64,000 nt of DNA, from positions 4,320 to 68,319 of IMG/VR virus record IMGVR_UViG_3300010396_000001; one strand, given 5' to 3'. Positions within the stretch are counted from its first letter, which is position 1. Each line of letters begins with the position of its first letter. Source of the stretch: a virus. Taxonomy: Duplodnaviria > Heunggongvirae > Uroviricota > Caudoviricetes. Of this stretch, positions 2,549-14,375 are shown piece by piece. The position numbers were made by a program, and so were the translations under genes. The notes under the pieces are model-generated. The model was given only the letters and a program-made list of their open reading frames with translations. It was not told the origin of the DNA and did not search any database.

Positions 2549-2776
2549 ATGCACGCGCCCACCGACATCCTGATCCGGACCGCCAACCCGGATATTCTCC
2601 AGCAGACCCTCCAGCAGCTCCCTGGCGTAAGGGCCTCCCTGCTGGGCAGTCCCGGACGCTACGAGCGCGAGGACGGCTGCTGGCGCGCCCGCGTGTTCGC
2701 CGGGCTGCCCTTCCTGGAGTTCGCCTTCGAGCAGCAGGGCTACGGCGAGATCGTCCGCGAGGCGGCAATCCCGTGA
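2549..2776 (+). CDS. Hypothetical protein (leaderless)
   Basis: TAGGGT 7 nt before ATG; GTGA overlap with the nucleotidyltransferase gene. Confidence 0.65.
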   Translation: MHAPTDILIRTANPDILQQTLQQLPGVRASLLGSPGRYEREDGCWRARVFAGLPFLEFAFEQQGYGEIVREAAIP

Positions 2777-3570
2777 CCAGGGGAACCGCCGCCCGGTACG
2801 GCACTGAGGAGTTCCGCCAGATCGCCGAGCGCGCCACGATCCTGCGCTGCGAGGTCGGCTCGGGAGCCCACGGCATCGCCATCCCCGGCACTGACGACCG
2901 CGATGAGATGGGCCTGTGCATCGAGCCGCCCTCCCACGTCATCGGCCTGCGCGAGTTCGAGCAGTACATCCGGCGCACCGCCTGGGCCCGCGGCGGCGAG
3001 CACGAGCCCTCGCAGGCCGGGGACCTGGACCTGGTCGTCTACAGCCTGCGCAAGTGGATGCGGCTGGCCCTCAACGGCAATCCCTCGATCCTGCTGCTGC
3101 TGTTCGCCCCGGATTCTGCCTGCCAGGTCCTGGAGCCCGCCGCCGTCCGCCTGCGCGAGAACGCCGGGAAGATCATCTCTCAGCAGTCCGGCTTCAGGTT
3201 CCTGGGCTACCTGCACTCCCAGCGCGAGAAGCTGCTCGGCATACGATCGCCCGAGGTGCACCGGCTGGACCTGGTCCAGAAGTACGGCTATGACACCAAG
3301 TTCGCCGCGCACGCGGTGCGCCTGGGCATGCAGGGCATCCAGCTCATGCAGACCGGGCGCCTGCAGCTGCCGATGAGCGAGTGGGACGCCGAGTTCGTGC
3401 GCACCATCAAGACCGGCCGCTACCGGCGCGTCGAGGACGTACTGGACGAGATCTCCCGCCTGGCCCGCGAGCTGGAGGAGGCAATCCAGGTCTCGGAGCT
3501 GCAGGCTGCCCCGGACCGCGAGTGGGCCGATGAGTACCTGGTCAGCGTTTACCGGGAGCTGTGGGGGTAA
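2773..3570 (+). CDS. RlaP/Nuc-transf-like DNA polymerase beta superfamily nucleotidyltransferase
   Basis: VGSGAHG...TDDRD (GS plus DxD), YSLRKWMRLALNGNPSILLLLF and KFAAHAVRL motifs. Confidence 0.85.
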   Translation: MTRGTAARYGTEEFRQIAERATILRCEVGSGAHGIAIPGTDDRDEMGLCIEPPSHVIGLREFEQYIRRTAWARGGEHEPSQAGDLDLVVYSLRKWMRLALNGNPSILLLLFAPDSACQVLEPAAVRLRENAGKIISQQSGFRFLGYLHSQREKLLGIRSPEVHRLDLVQKYGYDTKFAAHAVRLGMQGIQLMQTGRLQLPMSEWDAEFVRTIKTGRYRRVEDVLDEISRLARELEEAIQVSELQAAPDREWADEYLVSVYRELWG

Positions 3571-5913: not shown

Positions 5914-6651
5914 ATGACTACCGAGCGTCAGGAGACCGGCGGCCCGGGCCGCACCCCGCGCAGCGAGATCGGCCCGGCCGTCTCAGCAAACCGCAAGAAG
6001 GAGCCGGTGCTCCTGCTCGACCTGTCCACGTCCATGGACTGGTCGGCCACCGACGAGGGCAACGGCAAGGACTGGCCGGACGAGGGCAGCCGACGCGCCA
6101 TCGTGATCGGGGCCCTGCCCCTGCTGGTCAAGGCCCTGGAGGATCAGGACTCCGAGGCCGCTGCCGAGCAGGCGGGCGGTGATGACGAGGAGGGCGGCCT
6201 GCTGACCTTCGGCTTCGCCAACGACCCCGTCGAGATCGGGGACCTCAACTCCTCGAACCTGTCCCGGCGCCTCAACGAGATCCAGTGGGGCGGGCGCACC
6301 TACATCATGCCGGCCTGGAAGCTGGCCCTCAAGGACTACGACGAGGAGTTCGGCGACCGCGACCCGGCCGACCAGCCCACCCACCTGGTGCTGGTCATCA
6401 CCGACGGCCAGGCCGACGACTTCCGCGAGTTCGACAAGGTGATCGAGTCTGCCAGCGCCAAGCGCGTCATCGTCGTCGCGATCGTCGGCCACGGCGCCAA
6501 GGCCCGCGCCACCTTCGACGAGTACACCGCCGCCGCCAAGCGCAACACCGCGGCCGACAGGTTCGGCAAGACCCACGTGCGCGTCGTGTCGTTCGACGGC
6601 GTGACCGACCCCGCCGAGATCGGCGAGGACCTGGCCACCCTGGCCAGCTAG
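5914..6651 (+). CDS. vWA domain protein (TerF-associated vWA-like)
   Basis: MIDAS DLSTS, GGRT, ITDG. Confidence 0.8.
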   Translation: MTTERQETGGPGRTPRSEIGPAVSANRKKEPVLLLDLSTSMDWSATDEGNGKDWPDEGSRRAIVIGALPLLVKALEDQDSEAAAEQAGGDDEEGGLLTFGFANDPVEIGDLNSSNLSRRLNEIQWGGRTYIMPAWKLALKDYDEEFGDRDPADQPTHLVLVITDGQADDFREFDKVIESASAKRVIVVAIVGHGAKARATFDEYTAAAKRNTAADRFGKTHVRVVSFDGVTDPAEIGEDLATLAS

Positions 6652-7470: not shown

Positions 7471-7476
7471 GCTGAG

Positions 7477-7549
7477 CGCCCCCGGCCGGAATCGAACCGG
7501 CGACCTGCAGATTTAGAGTCCGCTGCTCTGCCACCTGAGCTACGGGGGC
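7477..7549 (-). tRNA. tRNA with CUA anticodon (amber suppressor-type)
   Basis: 73-nt cloverleaf: GCCCCCG/CGGGGGC acceptor, GCTC-AGGTGGCA-GAGC D arm, GCGGA-CTCTAAA-TCTGC anticodon arm, AGGTC variable loop, GCCGG-TTCGATT-CCGGC T arm, G73, no encoded CCA. Confidence 0.92.
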
Positions 7550-8701: not shown

Positions 8702-8959
8702 GTGCCCGAGATAATCACCAGCTGCCCCTGCCGTCGGCCGCATGAGATGAGCCCCGCCACCTGGTCGGCCTTCCGGCGCGTGACCAGGGGACTGCCGGAG
8801 ACCGTGGTCATCGAGGTGAATCGCAGGTCCTGGAAGGTGCCCCGGATCTATATCGCGCTGCACTCCGTGCACGGCGGCGACCTGCCGGAGCTGGCCGGGC
8901 GCTACGGCTGGGAGGAGCTGGATCCCGGCGAGGCGCAGCCGGACGGCCTGTCCCTGTAG
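8702..8959 (+). CDS. Hypothetical protein (probably leaderless)
   Basis: TAGGCT 6 nt before GTG; CPC motif. Confidence 0.6.
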   Translation: MPEIITSCPCRRPHEMSPATWSAFRRVTRGLPETVVIEVNRRSWKVPRIYIALHSVHGGDLPELAGRYGWEELDPGEAQPDGLSL

Positions 8960-9079: not shown

Positions 9080-9841
9080 ATGATCAGGAAGATCTCCGCA
9101 GTCATCGCCGCGGTGGTTGCCACCGTCGGGATCGGCGGCGCCGCCCTGGCCAGCACGGCCAGCACGGCCACCTCGCCGACGGTCTTCAGCGGCTGTGTCA
9201 ACACCAGGACCGGCCGCGTGCTCGACAACGTCTTCACCAGCCCCGCCAACTTCAGGCGCTGCCCGTCCGGCAGCTTCGAGGTGACCTGGAACCAGCGGGG
9301 GCTGAAGGGCGCCACCGGAGCGACCGGGGCCACGGGCCCGGCAGGCCCCGCCGGGGCGCCTGGCGCCACGGGTGCCAAGGGCGACACCGGCTCGCAGGGT
9401 CCCTCGGGCGTGGTCTCCACTGGCACTACCGACCTGGGCGGCGTTGCCTCGGTCCCGACCGGGGGCAGCTTCGTCACCAATGCCACCGATGTCGGCGAGA
9501 TCACGCTGGACGCGGGCACCTACCTGCTGAACGTGGACGCCAAGGCTACCCCGCCCTCTGGCGGCACCGGCGCTGTCGAGGAGTTCCCGCAGTTCTTCGT
9601 CTACAACGGTACGCCACTCGCCGACTTCTCCAACGACCTGTTCAACGTCGGCTCCGGCGCGCTGGAAAATGGCGCCAACGCCAACATCGACAGCTACTTC
9701 AGCGGCTCGGGCGAGATCACGCTGAACAGCTTGACCACGCTGCACTTCTACGCCTTCGGCTACAACAGCGACCGGAGCGCGGGCAGCTACGTCCTGGACG
9801 ACCTGTCGGTCACGGCCACCCGGCTCAACCCGGCCAGCTAG
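9080..9841 (+). CDS. Secreted collagen-like (G-X-Y repeat) protein
   Basis: Signal peptide MIRKISAVIAAVVATVGIGGAALA; about 12 GXY triplets; C-terminal beta-rich domain. Confidence 0.8.
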   Translation: MIRKISAVIAAVVATVGIGGAALASTASTATSPTVFSGCVNTRTGRVLDNVFTSPANFRRCPSGSFEVTWNQRGLKGATGATGATGPAGPAGAPGATGAKGDTGSQGPSGVVSTGTTDLGGVASVPTGGSFVTNATDVGEITLDAGTYLLNVDAKATPPSGGTGAVEEFPQFFVYNGTPLADFSNDLFNVGSGALENGANANIDSYFSGSGEITLNSLTTLHFYAFGYNSDRSAGSYVLDDLSVTATRLNPAS

Positions 9842-11609: not shown

Positions 11610-11743
11610 GGATCACCCGCCGCGAGAGGCTGCGCCGTCACTGGTGCGCTCTGCGCCGCCGCTGCTTCGAGTGTGACCTGCGCCGGCCGTTCCACCGGCT
11701 GGACTGCTCGCGCATGTTCTTCGGGGATGACGGCCTTGACTGA
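11606..11743 (+). CDS. Small Cys/Arg-rich protein
   Basis: ATGA overlap; CFEC...H..DC motif. Confidence 0.5.
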   Translation: MRITRRERLRRHWCALRRRCFECDLRRPFHRLDCSRMFFGDDGLD

Positions 11744-12560
11744 CAGCACGGGCCTCGGCGACCGCATGAAACGCTACGAGGCCTCGACGAGGTTCCGGCT
11801 GCCCCGACGTACCTACACGGTCATCCGGGTAGACGGGCGTGCCTTCCACACGCTGCTGCGGGATGCCGACAAGCCCTTTGACTATCCCTTCATGCGCATG
11901 ATGGAGCACACGGCACGGGAACTGTGCGCGGAAATTCCCGGAGCTGTATTCGCTTACGCCCAGTCCGACGAGATTTCTGTCCTGGTGCATGACTTCTCGT
12001 CCATTCACGCCGAGCCGTGGTTCGGCGGGAACGTCCAGAAAATATCCTCGGTCAGTGCCTCTGTTGCCACGATCCATTTCGCGAGAGCTGTTCTTCCCGG
12101 GACGTCCTGGGGCCACCGTGCCGCCACTTTCGACGGCCGGGCGTTCACGATCCCGGACCCGGTCGAGATCGGCAATTACTTCATCTGGCGCCAGCGTGAC
12201 GCCGCGCGCAACTCGGTGATGATGGCAGCTCAGGCTCGCTTTTCCCACGCCGAGCTGCAGGGCCTTAACAGCGGCCAGCTCCAGGAAAAGCTGTATGCCG
12301 AGGCCGGGATCAACTGGAACAATTACCCGGCACAGGCCCGCCGCGGCAGCCTCACGGTCAGCCAGGAGTACCGGGTGTCTCACGATGATCCTCCGGTCGC
12401 GCCGCACATGGCCGGGGACTGCCTGCACCCGCGGACCTGCGTGCGCCACCGGTGGAGCACGCAGGCGGCGCCGGCCTTCGCGATCGAGCCCGGCAACGTC
12501 CTGGCCACGCTGGTCCCGCCCCTGCCGGTGATGCCGGCCCCAGCCGCAGAGGAGAGCTGA
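11727..12560 (+). CDS. thg1: tRNA-His guanylyltransferase Thg1-like protein (3'-5' polymerase)
   Basis: IRVDGRAFH, YAQSDEIS, FDGRAF and YFIWRQRDAARNS motifs; start could alternatively be 11736 or 11766. Confidence 0.92.
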   Translation: MTALTDSTGLGDRMKRYEASTRFRLPRRTYTVIRVDGRAFHTLLRDADKPFDYPFMRMMEHTARELCAEIPGAVFAYAQSDEISVLVHDFSSIHAEPWFGGNVQKISSVSASVATIHFARAVLPGTSWGHRAATFDGRAFTIPDPVEIGNYFIWRQRDAARNSVMMAAQARFSHAELQGLNSGQLQEKLYAEAGINWNNYPAQARRGSLTVSQEYRVSHDDPPVAPHMAGDCLHPRTCVRHRWSTQAAPAFAIEPGNVLATLVPPLPVMPAPAAEES

Positions 12561-12910
12561 TGATCCCCGTCGCCGCCGGAGTGTATGCCGAGCTGTTCGA
12601 CCTGACGCCGCTGCCCGGCGGCGGGTTCCGGGTCAAAGAGACCGAGACCCACTGGATCGACATTGTCCCGATGATCTTCAGCTGGCGGATGGTCACCGTG
12701 CCGAAGAACGACCCGCTGACGCGCGAGCGCAGCTGGTGCTACTTCGGGAGGGAGGCCCAGAACTTCATCGCCGCCGTGCTGGCCGCCCAGGCCTGGGACG
12801 GCACCGATGGCACGCGCCCGGAGGGCTGGGACAAGGACCTGCAGACCGGGGAGTACAGCCGCCGGAGCGGCCTAGGTAAGGAACCAGTTCACGACCCGGC
12901 CGCCGGATGA
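12560..12910 (+). CDS. Hypothetical protein
   Basis: TGATG coupling; WCY and AWDG motifs. Confidence 0.65.
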   Translation: MIPVAAGVYAELFDLTPLPGGGFRVKETETHWIDIVPMIFSWRMVTVPKNDPLTRERSWCYFGREAQNFIAAVLAAQAWDGTDGTRPEGWDKDLQTGEYSRRSGLGKEPVHDPAAG

Positions 12911-13210
12911 CAGCGTGCTGTGGGTCGGGACCGCCGCGGTGACCGGCACGTTCGGCAGCGGGATGGCCGGCTGGCCGGACGGGGTCACCGTGATGTCCAC
13001 GACCTGAGGCGTGCCCATGTAGAAGTTCACGGCGCCATTCGGCGTGGTGAACGGGTTGCTCAGCGTCGCCGAGCCAGTCGGGCCCTGGTACAGCGCTCCC
13101 GGCACGGCCGCAGCCCTGCCCGGCACGTTGACCGTCACGCTGGCGCTGGCCAGGGTGGTCTTGCCCGGCATCTTCGCGGCATCCAGCACGACCCGCACCC
13201 TGCTGCTCAT
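12872..13210 (-). CDS. Stand-alone paralog of the tail-fibre N-terminal domain
   Basis: LSNPFTTPNGAVNFYM matches LTNPFTTPDGNVSFYL in 51035..52012. Confidence 0.65.
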   Translation of the reverse strand: MSSRVRVVLDAAKMPGKTTLASASVTVNVPGRAAAVPGALYQGPTGSATLSNPFTTPNGAVNFYMGTPQVVDITVTPSGQPAIPLPNVPVTAAVPTHSTLSSGGRVVNWFLT

Positions 13211-13291
13211 GTCGCTTCCGGGCGCTAGGATCCTGACCGGAGCCGGCAGCTGACGGCCCCTGGCCCGCCGGCCGGAACACCCGGCGGAAAC

Positions 13292-13347
13292 GGACAGTCC
13301 CGGTGGGCTTCCCCGCGAGGGGAATCAGGGTTCGATCCCCGTTGTCC
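13292..13347 (+). ncRNA. Mini tRNA-like element
   Basis: GGACA/TGTCC closing stem, GTCC-CGGT-GGGC arm, TTCCCC-GCGA-GGGGAA arm, GGG-TTCGATC-CCC T-like arm. Confidence 0.4.
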
Positions 13348-13351
13348 TGCC

Positions 13352-13460
13352 GGAGCGCGAGGGTAAGCCGGGAAGCGGCCGATACCGGTGGCAGCTGGCA
13401 CTGCCCCGGCCCCGTGCCAGCGGGGGCGGACGGAGGTTCAAATCCTCCTCCTCGCGCTCC
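13352..13460 (+). ncRNA. tRNA-like RNA with an extended acceptor stem and complementary loops
   Basis: 12-bp terminal stem, D-like arm, two central hairpins, canonical GGAGG-TTCAAAT-CCTCC T arm. Confidence 0.65.
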
Positions 13461-13471
13461 CCGGAAGCAGC

Positions 13472-13825
13472 GTGACCGCGATCATCCCGCCGGACAACCG
13501 GGCCGCCGGCCAGACCGGGCACCTCGGTGATCACAACAACATCTCCGACGTGCTCACCGCCATGGCCTCGATCCTGGCTGCCTACCCGTCGCTGGCGATG
13601 GGGACCGCCAACCTCGCGGGCGGCACCGTCACCGTCCCGAGCGGCATCGTGACGGCCTCCTCGGTGATCTTCCACGCCCGCCAGTCACCGGGCGGCACGC
13701 TCGGCCAGCTGTCGGTTACCGCGATCATTCCCGGCGTCTCCTTCACCATCACCTCGACCTCGGGAAGCGAGACTTCCCAGGTCGGCTATCTCATCGCCAC
13801 CGGCGCGCCGCCTGCCATTCCCTGA
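13472..13825 (+). CDS. Putative virion protein
   Basis: Gly/Ser/Thr-rich beta protein at the start of the structural gene run. Confidence 0.6.
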   Translation: MTAIIPPDNRAAGQTGHLGDHNNISDVLTAMASILAAYPSLAMGTANLAGGTVTVPSGIVTASSVIFHARQSPGGTLGQLSVTAIIPGVSFTITSTSGSETSQVGYLIATGAPPAIP

Positions 13826-13850
13826 CGCTCGGAAGATGCAGGAGGCTTAC

Positions 13851-14375
13851 ATGACTGCTGTGACCGAAGAGCGCTCGCGATACGTCCCGGTGATGTGCCG
13901 GAACAAGATGGCCGGGCCCACCGTGATCGCCTCGGATCCCAAGAGCACCCACGAGGTGATCTTCTCCGGGGCCGGGGCGCCCGACGGCGGCGATGTCCAG
14001 CCGATCCCGGACGAGCTGATCCGCGTGCCGGCGTTCTCGCGGGCGATCTCCCTCGGCATCCTGGAGGTCATCCAGGGCTCCGACAACGAGGCGGTCCGGG
14101 CCGCGCTCCAGGTTCAGTCCGATGCCTTCTGGAAGCGCTCGCAGCAGGACAACGAGACTGCCCTGGCCAGCCTCGACGCGCCTGCCGACAATGACCTGAT
14201 CGCCGTGGCCTGCATCGGGCCGGGCACGCGGCCCGGCACCCGGTGCGAGGACACCATCCCGGTCCGGGCCCGCGAGCAGGACGCCCAGCCGCCGCTGTGC
14301 AGCCGTCACCAGTCCCTGGCCTCCCGGTGCCTGCGCCGGGGCACCGGCCCGTGGGAGCTGGAGGAGCTGGGATGA
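13851..14375 (+). CDS. Hypothetical protein with a C-terminal C3H-type motif
   Basis: GGAGG RBS; C..C...CSRH. Confidence 0.65.
   Translation: MTAVTEERSRYVPVMCRNKMAGPTVIASDPKSTHEVIFSGAGAPDGGDVQPIPDELIRVPAFSRAISLGILEVIQGSDNEAVRAALQVQSDAFWKRSQQDNETALASLDAPADNDLIAVACIGPGTRPGTRCEDTIPVRAREQDAQPPLCSRHQSLASRCLRRGTGPWELEELG

What the first reader, a model, noticed from the sequence alone, without database searches (positions are those of the whole stretch)
13352..13460. tRNA-shaped RNA whose two central loops are perfectly complementary
Seen in sequence: acceptor GCGAGGG/TCCTCGC extended to 12 bp by GGAGC/GCTCC; D-like arm GCCG-GGAAG-CGGC; perfect T arm GGAGG-TTCAAAT-CCTCC; G at the discriminator position. 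The anticodon and variable region holds two hairpins, CCGG(T)GGCAG-CTGGCA-CTGCCCCGG and CCCCG-TGCCAG-CGGGG. Their 6-nt loops CUGGCA and UGCCAG are exact reverse complements. Inference: a kissing loop, an intermolecular hand-in-hand oligomer (as in phi29 pRNA), or a two-state switch (alternative 8-bp helix GCTGGCAC/GTGCCAGC). It cannot decode normally because the loop is 6 nt. It sits 11 nt before the first virion gene, so it could be a tRNA decoy, a processing signal or an assembly RNA.
Basis: partly seen in the sequence, partly recalled or inferred. Interest (0 to 1): 0.85.

Follow-up and report, generated by a model that had tools for sequence, protein, structure and literature searches.

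The report
Orphan non-decoding tRNA-like relic
This 109-base stretch is a one-off, tRNA-derived RNA shape that cannot decode; it sits where related phages carry a large tRNA gene array, its closest known relative lacks it, and nothing supports the proposed kissing-loop function.

Summary
It is tRNA-like. A covariance model built from 12 phage tRNA-Ser genes matches exactly 13357-13456 (26.4 bits, E 7e-5). ARAGORN calls it once its threshold is lowered to 95%, with a 6-nt anticodon loop. Default ARAGORN and Rfam do not call it, and no canonical anticodon loop can be drawn.

Context explains most of it. More distant relatives carry 18-39 tRNA genes ending 53-58 nt upstream of the same K1-lyase_C gene. 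The closest relatives (85% and 61% protein identity) have a collinear intergenic region with a clean 105-110-nt gap exactly where this element lies. Several exact-pattern scans of viral and metagenome contigs and a sequencing-run index found no homologue.

The kissing-loop idea is not supported.

Best reading: a lineage-specific, tRNA-Ser-like, non-decoding relic or variant in a lost tRNA-array slot. It may still be cut by tRNA-processing enzymes.

One oddity remains: an unbroken 12-bp closing helix that none of 62 real tRNAs shows.

The scan has not found this element on other DNA.

The parts
13352..13356 (+). 5' strand (GGAGC) of the 5-bp extension that lengthens the acceptor helix to 12 bp
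   Evidence: sequence. Pair probability 0.98. None of 62 real tRNAs in relatives or in this genome extends by more than 2 bp. L090 has GAAGC at this place.
13357..13363 (+). Acceptor-stem 5' strand GCGAGGG. The covariance-model match starts here.
   Evidence: The R1 match covers 13357-13456. Pairing seen.
13364..13384 (+). UAA linker, D-like hairpin GCCG-GGAAG-CGGC and CGAUA spacer. This is the part most similar to a relative's tRNA-Ser(CGA).
   Evidence: The 5' half (13357-13405) scores best of 161 phage tRNAs against L227 tRNA-Ser(cga), at 25 of 31 aligned bases, z 3.9. The hairpin has low probability in the thermodynamic ensemble.
13385..13409 (+). Anticodon-position hairpin: inner 5-bp stem GGCAG/CTGCC with the 6-nt loop CTGGCA (13395-13400), extendable to 9 bp
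   Evidence: ARAGORN at 95% threshold reads a 2-base 'anticodon' gg. In the MFE, CTGGC pairs with GCCGG 13367-71 instead.
13410..13431 (+).
   Evidence: Pair probability 0.98. Present in every low-energy fold.
13432..13448 (+). Canonical T arm GGAGG-TTCAAAT-CCTCC
   Evidence: probability 0.995. Aligned to the model's T arm.
13449..13460 (+). Acceptor 3' strand TCCTCGC, G at the discriminator position (13456) and trailer CTCC. The last 5 nt pair with 13352-56.
   Evidence: The 21-mer GGTTCAAATCCTCCTCCTCGC is identical to the 3' end of tRNA-Ser(UGA) genes in seven 41-kb IMG/VR phages.
13283..13351 (+). Upstream mini tRNA-like element, in tandem 4 nt before the large one. It is context, not part of the insert.
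   Evidence: Conserved in L090, L092/L093, L094 and L226, with compensatory changes. R1 scores 11.2 bits.
13472..13825 (+). Downstream gene: a 117-aa protein with a K1-lyase_C (tail-fibre/spike C-terminal) domain
   Evidence: PF24146, E 1.2e-20. 43 homologues found.
12872..13210 (-). Upstream, divergently oriented 112-aa gene of unknown function
   Evidence: GC3 frame analysis. Homologues at 82% and 55% identity. Same layout in L090 and L092.

Best explanation
The element is a lineage-specific, tRNA-derived, non-decoding tRNA-like gene. It has a class II, tRNA-Ser-like body and a damaged 6-nt anticodon loop.

It lies in the slot immediately upstream of the K1-lyase_C virion gene. Related 160-kb phages keep the 3' end of an 18-39-member tRNA array in that slot. 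This phage lineage has lost the array and retains only two tandem tRNA-like remnants: a conserved mini element and this 109-nt one.

Shown: tRNA-family shape, + strand, inability to decode, absence from the nearest relatives, and synteny with tRNA arrays.

Inferred: it is transcribed in the leader of the virion gene and is still recognised by RNase P and 3'-end tRNA-processing enzymes through its acceptor/T-arm stack. At most it would then act as a dispensable processing or stability module. Otherwise it is a neutral or recently arisen pseudo-tRNA. It is not a kissing-loop or assembly RNA.
For: (1) A covariance model built from 12 phage tRNA-Ser genes hits 13357-13456 on the + strand over the whole model: 26.4 bits, E 6.7e-5 in 174 kb. 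The only other hit in the 64-kb window is the true tRNA(CUA).

(2) ARAGORN calls the element at 95% of its default threshold, with a 2-base anticodon, that is a 6-nt loop.

(3) The element has G at the discriminator position, an extra variable-position hairpin and UA at positions 8-9. Its 5' half matches L227 tRNA-Ser(CGA) best of 161 tRNAs, at 25/31. Its 3' 21 nt are identical to phage tRNA-Ser(UGA) genes.

(4) The loop CUGGCA is one substitution plus one deletion from the Ser(GGA) loop CUGGAAA (read from the sequence).

(5) Relatives L095-L098, L227, L231, L233 and L234 carry 4 to 39 tRNAs in the stretch fetched (18-39 where at least 3 kb upstream was obtained), ending 53-58 nt upstream of the same gene.

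(6) Those arrays also hold aberrant members: one with a 6-nt loop, one with an 8-nt loop and a degenerate Ser-like copy.

(7) L090 (85% identity), a second contig with the same 156-nt spacer, and L092/L093 (61%) have collinear intergenic regions with a clean 105-110-nt gap at this element.

(8) The genome has only three credible tRNAs left.

(9) The element folds as an independent domain in its leader context.
Against: All helices are unbroken: 12 + 5 bp in the acceptor/T stack, with a single G-U. A long-neutral relic should have acquired mismatches, given about 20% divergence of the flanking intergenic DNA from L090. This implies either recent origin or selection on structure.

The 5-bp extension that buries the discriminator is seen in none of 62 real tRNAs. 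It is not what an RNase P/Z substrate normally looks like.

The covariance-model score rests mostly on the acceptor and T arm, and the interior was aligned differently from my homology-guided reading. The tRNA-Ser(CGA) similarity is only modestly above the next-best tRNAs (29 against 26).

Rfam's tRNA model gives no hit even at E 10. Transcription and processing are untested.
Confidence: 0.58

Rival explanations
1. It is a functional, non-decoding tRNA mimic under structural selection that works with the phage's RNA toolkit or against host defence. It could be a decoy for a tRNA-targeting nuclease. It could be a substrate or regulator of the Thg1-like 3'-5' polymerase, with the trailer GCUCC templating the 5' strand. 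It could be a SerRS ligand, since SerRS does not read the anticodon (established knowledge).
For: The helices are perfect, and the unusual 12-bp closure is absent from 62 real tRNAs. The z score is extreme. A Thg1-like gene lies 800 nt upstream and an RlaP gene is at 2773-3570. The genome also encodes Ro60/TROVE and YrlA-like RNAs, so this phage does use tRNA mimics.
Against: The closest relative lacks the element, so it is dispensable. No homologue was found. It is not linked to Thg1 in 80 other Thg1-bearing phage loci. There is no direct evidence of expression.
Confidence: 0.2
3. It is a chance GC-rich structure, or a DNA-level feature of a divergent promoter region. It is neither tRNA-derived nor made as RNA.
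For: The stretch is 73% GC and has many alternative pairings. Default tRNA finders do not call it. No promoter or terminator consensus was found.
Against: The covariance-model match has exact tRNA boundaries at E 7e-5. The T loop is canonical and, among non-tRNA sites, unique in the genome. Strand asymmetry favours + (G-U pair; -69.7 against -64.8). It lies in tandem with a conserved tRNA-like element, in a tRNA-array slot.
Confidence: 0.1
4. It is a Ro60-binding Y RNA (YrlA-type) serving the phage's own Ro60 protein.
For: The genome encodes a TROVE/Ro60 protein. YrlA RNAs mimic tRNA (PMC4201824).
Against: The YrlA-like RNAs lie next to the TROVE gene, about 80 kb away. The YrlA order is T arm, acceptor-like hairpin, D arm (Rfam consensus line), whereas here the D-like arm is first and the T arm last. 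There is no YrlA hit at E 10. The closing helix has no internal loop or bulge.
Confidence: 0.03

Closest known systems
Class II bacterial/phage tRNA-Ser genes in phage tRNA arrays
   Same: 7-bp acceptor, UA at positions 8-9, canonical T arm, an extra hairpin at the variable-arm position, G at position 73, and tandem placement in a tRNA-array slot. It gets a full-length match to a phage tRNA-Ser covariance model.
   Different: The anticodon loop has 6 nt and lacks a usable U33-NNN-R37 frame. The anticodon-position stem can extend to 9 bp. The D loop is short. Five extra pairs bury the discriminator. It scores 26 bits against 65-80 for true tRNA-Ser genes. It is not called by default ARAGORN or Rfam.
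Aberrant or degenerate tRNA-like members of related phages' arrays (L227 4734-4807, 8837-8917, 5946-6032)
   Same: They belong to the same phage family, sit in the same kind of location, and have tRNA frames with non-standard anticodon loops or decayed arms.
   Different: There is no sequence homology to them. They lack the 12-bp closure and are embedded in intact arrays.
tRNA-like processing signals (plant mitochondrial t-elements; MALAT1 mascRNA-type modules)
   Same: A non-decoding tRNA-shaped module next to another transcript's end. It would work like these if RNase P/Z cuts it (inference).
   Different: No processing data exist. It is dispensable in the closest relative. The mascRNA model scores only 13.6 bits, far below its threshold.
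YrlA (bacterial and phage Y RNA with a tRNA-like module)
   Same: tRNA mimicry by a phage that encodes Ro60.
   Different: YrlA has a permuted arm order and a bulged Ro-binding stem. Here there is no Rfam match, and the genome's YrlA-like RNAs are elsewhere.
phi29 pRNA
   Same: Only the idea of complementary loops that could pair between molecules.
   Different: There is no sequence or structure match, the fold is different, and the complementarity is within chance.

Membership tests
Canonical tRNA (Rfam RF00005) | 7-bp acceptor stem stacked on a 5-bp T stem with a T-psi-C-type 7-nt loop | tested here: met
   GCGAGGG/TCCTCGC plus GGAGG-TTCAAAT-CCTCC
Canonical tRNA (Rfam RF00005) | 5-bp anticodon stem with a 7-nt loop carrying U33 and a purine at 37 | tested here: not met
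   An exhaustive scan of 5-bp stems with 6-9-nt loops found none that fits. The best hairpin has a 6-nt loop.
Canonical tRNA (Rfam RF00005) | Detected by standard tRNA finders or models at their thresholds | tested here: not met
   ARAGORN at default finds nothing. Rfam at gathering score and at E up to 10 gives no tRNA hit. ARAGORN calls it only at 95% threshold.
Canonical tRNA (Rfam RF00005) | Unpaired discriminator and 3' end available for CCA | tested here: not met
   G13456 and the next 4 nt pair with 13352-56. 62 real tRNAs extend by 0-2 bp only.
Class II tRNA-Ser | Long variable arm and G73 | tested here: met
   Hairpin 13410-25 at the variable position has pair probability 0.98. G is at 13456. 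13 of 14 reference phage tRNA-Ser genes have G73.
Class II tRNA-Ser | Score comparable to family members under a family covariance model | tested here: inconclusive
   26.4 bits, E 6.7e-5, against 65-80 bits for true tRNA-Ser genes. The score is similar to the weakest real tRNAs. The interior was aligned locally.
Class II tRNA-Ser | Serylation by SerRS | not testable with these tools
   Needs an in vitro aminoacylation assay
YrlA / Y RNA | Arm order T arm, acceptor-like hairpin, D arm inside a bulged Ro-binding stem, with a Rfam RF02553 match | tested here: not met
   No hit at E up to 10. The arm order is the opposite. The genome's YrlA-like RNAs are at L230 2616-2730 and 2909-2964.
phi29-type pRNA | Match to the pRNA family, and loop-loop complementarity maintained by covariation | tested here: not met
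   No Rfam hit. Covariation cannot be tested because there is no homologue. The complementarity is within chance.
tmRNA | tRNA-Ala-like domain plus a tag reading frame | tested here: not met
   ARAGORN -m finds nothing even at an 80% threshold. No Rfam hit.
Phage attP carrying a tRNA 3' fragment | An integrase encoded in the genome | tested here: not met
   No tyrosine integrase or serine recombinase domain in the complete genome, which has direct terminal repeats
Intrinsic terminator | GC-rich hairpin followed by a U run | tested here: not met
   No terminator-like site in 12800-13900. The helix is followed by CCGGAAGCAGC.

The most novel reading that the evidence does not exclude
The element is a recently evolved, structurally selected class II tRNA mimic that no longer decodes. 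It would act in trans or in cis with the phage's unusual RNA toolkit (Thg1-like 3'-5' polymerase, RlaP, Ro60/YrlA), or as a decoy for host tRNA-targeting defences. In that case its 12-bp sealed acceptor helix would be the functional novelty, for example a form protected from exonucleases or CCA addition, or the product or template of 3'-5' polymerisation.
Probability: 0.12. Interest if true: 0.65.

Novelty: new member of a known kind. Interest (0 to 1): 0.27.

Why it matters
As it stands it matters little. It is a single-genome, dispensable, tRNA-derived element of the kind that gain and loss of tRNA genes in phage arrays would be expected to leave behind.

It is useful as a case study. It shows how a tRNA array decays into non-decoding tRNA-shaped remnants next to a virion operon, and how sub-threshold class II tRNA relics escape standard finders.

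If the sealed 12-bp helix and flawless stems reflect selection, it would be a new type of phage tRNA mimic. The same genome also carries a Thg1-like enzyme, RlaP, Ro60 and YrlA-like RNAs, so such a mimic could be tested directly alongside phage RNA repair and quality control.

Tried and rejected
- **Similarity searches:** blastn against 50,697 phage records found no match. blastn-short and nhmmer against 80 Thg1-bearing phage loci found nothing.
- **Exact or degenerate pattern scans of IMG/VR:**
  - The T arm plus acceptor 3' strand hit only ordinary tRNA-Ser(UGA) genes.
  - Three other patterns found nothing.
  - One pattern hit an unrelated coding sequence.
- **Metagenome contig scans:** the acceptor/T-arm frame found nothing. 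The two-hairpin pattern with free loops hit only an unrelated, apparently coding stretch.
- **Genome contig scan for a donor tRNA:** it returned mostly archaeal, plus a few bacterial, tRNA-Leu genes with A73. This is generic convergence, not a donor.
- **Sequencing runs:** only the probable source soil sample holds the stretch. No RNA holder is listed.
- **Laying contigs:** an independent Logan assembly of that run reproduces the stretch with 0 differences. The second run carried only unrelated fragments.
- **ARAGORN intron model:** tRNA-Gly(ACC) with an 18-nt intron appears only at 90% threshold or lower and needs a poor D arm. Rejected.
- **In-frame upstream GTG at 13388:** rejected as a start. 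Homologues begin at the conserved MTAIIPPD-type N-terminus, which corresponds to 13472.
- **Origin by local duplication of upstream intergenic sequence:** marginal, p 0.03.
- **Other hypotheses rejected:** attP, terminator, tmRNA, YrlA and pRNA (see the membership tests).
- **Linkage to Thg1:** high-GC Thg1 relatives have no tRNA-like element within 4 kb.
- **Literature searches:** no description of a comparable phage element.

Full report
**Where it is.** The window is bases 4320-68319 of a complete 160.7-kb virus record with direct terminal repeats. The genome is 68% GC and its only sequencing-run holder is a soil metagenome. The element (13352-13460) lies in a 261-nt intergenic region between two divergent genes. 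One is a 112-aa gene on the minus strand (12872-13210). The other is a 117-aa gene on the plus strand (13472-13825) whose product has a K1-lyase_C tail-fibre/spike domain (PF24146, E 1e-20).

**Observation.**
- The plus strand folds to -69.7 kcal/mol with z -5.2. The minus strand gives -64.8.
- Of 363 background 109-nt windows of the same genome, only one reaches z -4.9.
- A scan of the whole genome for a perfect T arm with a TTCRA loop next to a 7/7 acceptor pairing finds only real tRNAs and this element.
- An independent Logan assembly of the probable source run reproduces the stretch without a difference.
- So the tRNA-shaped frame is real and not a chance feature.

**The loops.** The complementarity of the two central loops is weaker evidence than it looks.
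- An 8-nt perfect inverted repeat arises in 9.9% of dinucleotide shuffles of the 68-nt interior.
Its D-like and long anticodon-like helices have pair probabilities below 3%.
- In the MFE, CUGGC pairs with GCCGG at 13367-71 instead.
- Hairpin 2 prefers a 6-bp stem with a GCCA tetraloop.
- The fold that contains the alternative 8-bp helix is about 9 kcal/mol worse than the MFE.
- The two hairpins abut without a linker, so an intramolecular coaxial kissing complex looks sterically implausible. This last point is an inference from helix geometry.

**Is it a tRNA?**
- Default ARAGORN and Rfam (gathering score, and E up to 10 on a 301-nt stretch) do not call it.
- No canonical anticodon arm can be drawn anywhere in it.
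- With its threshold lowered to 95%, ARAGORN calls a tRNA with a 2-base anticodon, that is a 6-nt loop.
- I built a covariance model from 12 class II tRNA-Ser genes of phages. It hits 13357-13456 on the plus strand over the full model, exactly from the first acceptor base to the discriminator. The score is 26.4 bits, E 6.7e-5 in 174 kb. The only other hit in the 64-kb window is the real tRNA(CUA).
- That score is in the range of the weakest true tRNAs and far below true tRNA-Ser genes (65-80 bits). It rests mainly on the acceptor and T arm.
- Other features point to a tRNA-Ser-type ancestor:
  - G at position 73, an extra hairpin at the variable-arm position, and UA at positions 8-9.
  - A 5' half whose best match among 161 phage tRNAs is the tRNA-Ser(CGA) of relative L227, at 25 of 31 aligned bases, z 3.9. 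The two share the unusual GCCG-5 nt-CGGC D hairpin.
  - A 3' 21-mer identical to tRNA-Ser(UGA) genes of other phages.
  - The loop CUGGCA is one substitution and one deletion from the Ser(GGA) loop.

**Comparative context.** This is the decisive part.
- The downstream protein has 43 relatives.
- In the more distant ones (about 53% identity; genomes of roughly 160 kb), the stretch directly upstream of this gene is a tRNA array. There are 18 tRNAs in 3 kb in L095, L097 and L098, 39 in L227 and 35 in L234. The last tRNA ends 53-58 nt before the start codon.
- These arrays include aberrant members that ARAGORN flags or misses: one with a 6-nt anticodon loop, one with an 8-nt loop and a degenerate Ser-like copy.
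- The present phage has lost the array. Its genome has only three credible tRNAs.
- In the closest relatives the divergent gene pair and the intergenic region are collinear with ours, including the upstream mini tRNA-like element. These are L090 at 85% identity, a second contig with the same 156-nt spacer, and L092/L093 at 61%. In all of them there is a clean 105-110-nt gap exactly where the 109-nt element sits.
- L094 and L226 also lack the element.
- No homologue was found by blastn against phage records, by several exact-pattern scans of IMG/VR and JGI metagenome contigs, or in the sequencing-run index.

**Interpretation.** The best-supported reading is a lineage-specific, tRNA-Ser-derived, non-decoding tRNA-like gene in a lost tRNA-array slot. 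It sits in tandem with a conserved mini tRNA-like element.
- Whether it was gained in this lineage or lost from the others cannot be decided.
- Either way it is dispensable for the closest relative.
- By analogy with the arrays that precede the same gene elsewhere, the most likely residual activity is recognition by RNase P and 3'-end processing enzymes. That would make it a processing or stability module in the leader of the virion gene. This step is inferred, not shown.

**What does not fit a simple relic.** All helices are unbroken, although the flanking intergenic DNA has diverged about 20% from L090. A 5-bp extension seals the acceptor helix to 12 bp and buries the discriminator. None of 62 real tRNAs in relatives or in this genome extends by more than 2 bp. 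This argues for recent origin or for selection on structure, and it keeps a functional tRNA-mimic reading alive at about 20%.

The genome does invest in RNA biology:
- a Thg1-like 3'-5' polymerase lies 800 nt upstream;
- an RlaP nucleotidyltransferase is at 2773-3570;
- a Ro60/TROVE protein is encoded with two YrlA-like RNAs beside it.

But the element is not a YrlA. The arm order is opposite, there is no Rfam hit, and it lies 80 kb from the TROVE gene. It is also not associated with Thg1 in 80 other Thg1-bearing phage loci.

**Hypotheses tested and rejected.** attP (no integrase), terminator, tmRNA and pRNA.

**Verdict.**
- Observation: largely confirmed.
- Interpretation: 'tRNA-shaped and unable to decode' is right. 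'Kissing loop, oligomer or switch' is unsupported.
- Novelty: a new member of a known kind, namely degenerate tRNA-like members of phage tRNA clusters.
- Interest: low to moderate. One real oddity remains, the sealed 12-bp helix with flawless stems.

Noticed in passing
window 13283-13351 (+); L090 1386-1451; L092 2928-2992; L094 2893-2962; L226 1822-1910 (-): The mini tRNA-like element is conserved in five lineages. It has an acceptor-like stem, a GNRA-capped hairpin and a short T-like arm, with compensatory changes in the acceptor stem and the capped hairpin. In L226 it is inverted together with the 112-aa gene, so it appears tied to that gene rather than to the K1-lyase_C gene. The tRNA-Ser model scores it 11.2 bits here and 19.3 bits in L226.
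   Followed up: partly
L230 (genome 96444-99638, outside the window): TROVE match at genome 97944-98138 (-); YrlA-like at L230 2616-2730 (-) and 2909-2964 (-): The phage encodes a Ro60/TROVE protein in a 640-aa open frame, with two YrlA-like Y RNAs beside it (36.8 and 26.9 bits, both below Rfam's gathering score). ARAGORN's 'tRNA-Ile(gat)' at genome 99382-99457 overlaps the tRNA-like module of the second one.
   Followed up: partly
window 11673-12560 (+) and 2773-3570 (+): There is a Thg1-like 3'-5' polymerase (PF04446, phrog_4717, E 2e-74) and an RlaP RNA-repair nucleotidyltransferase (PF10127, E 8e-30). No RtcB was found in the genome.
   Followed up: partly
window 7476-7549 (-); L226 508-586 (-): A canonical tRNA with a CUA (amber-reading) anticodon scores 66 bits in Rfam. 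A tRNA with the same CUA anticodon is present in the related contig L226.
   Followed up: no
L227 683-9945; L234 2342-9947; L095 4-2947: Related phages of about 160 kb carry arrays of 35-39 tRNAs directly upstream of the virion gene. These include odd members: L227 4734-4807 (6-nt anticodon loop), 8837-8917 (8-nt loop), 5946-6032 (degenerate Ser-like copy with a broken T arm) and 9431-9510 (tRNA-Tyr-like, missed by ARAGORN).
   Followed up: partly
L094 2963-3000; L095 2950-3000; L097 2948-3000: Between the last tRNA or mini element and the K1-lyase_C gene start, distant relatives have a hairpin with a GGAA(G) loop. Its 3' strand is the GGAGG Shine-Dalgarno sequence, so it may control translation. 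Here only the CCGGAAG part remains.
   Followed up: no
genome 129406-129485 (-), outside the window: ARAGORN's 80-nt 'tRNA-Arg(gcg)' is extremely GC-rich and looks like a false positive or another aberrant tRNA-like element.
   Followed up: no
L009 2236-2349 (+): In an unrelated Thg1-bearing 159-kb phage, a 114-nt element lies between two tRNA-Ser genes. It has a closing helix of about 11 bp and two T-arm-like hairpins (24.5 bits with the tRNA-Ser model). It is another closed, multi-hairpin tRNA-like element inside a tRNA array.
   Followed up: no
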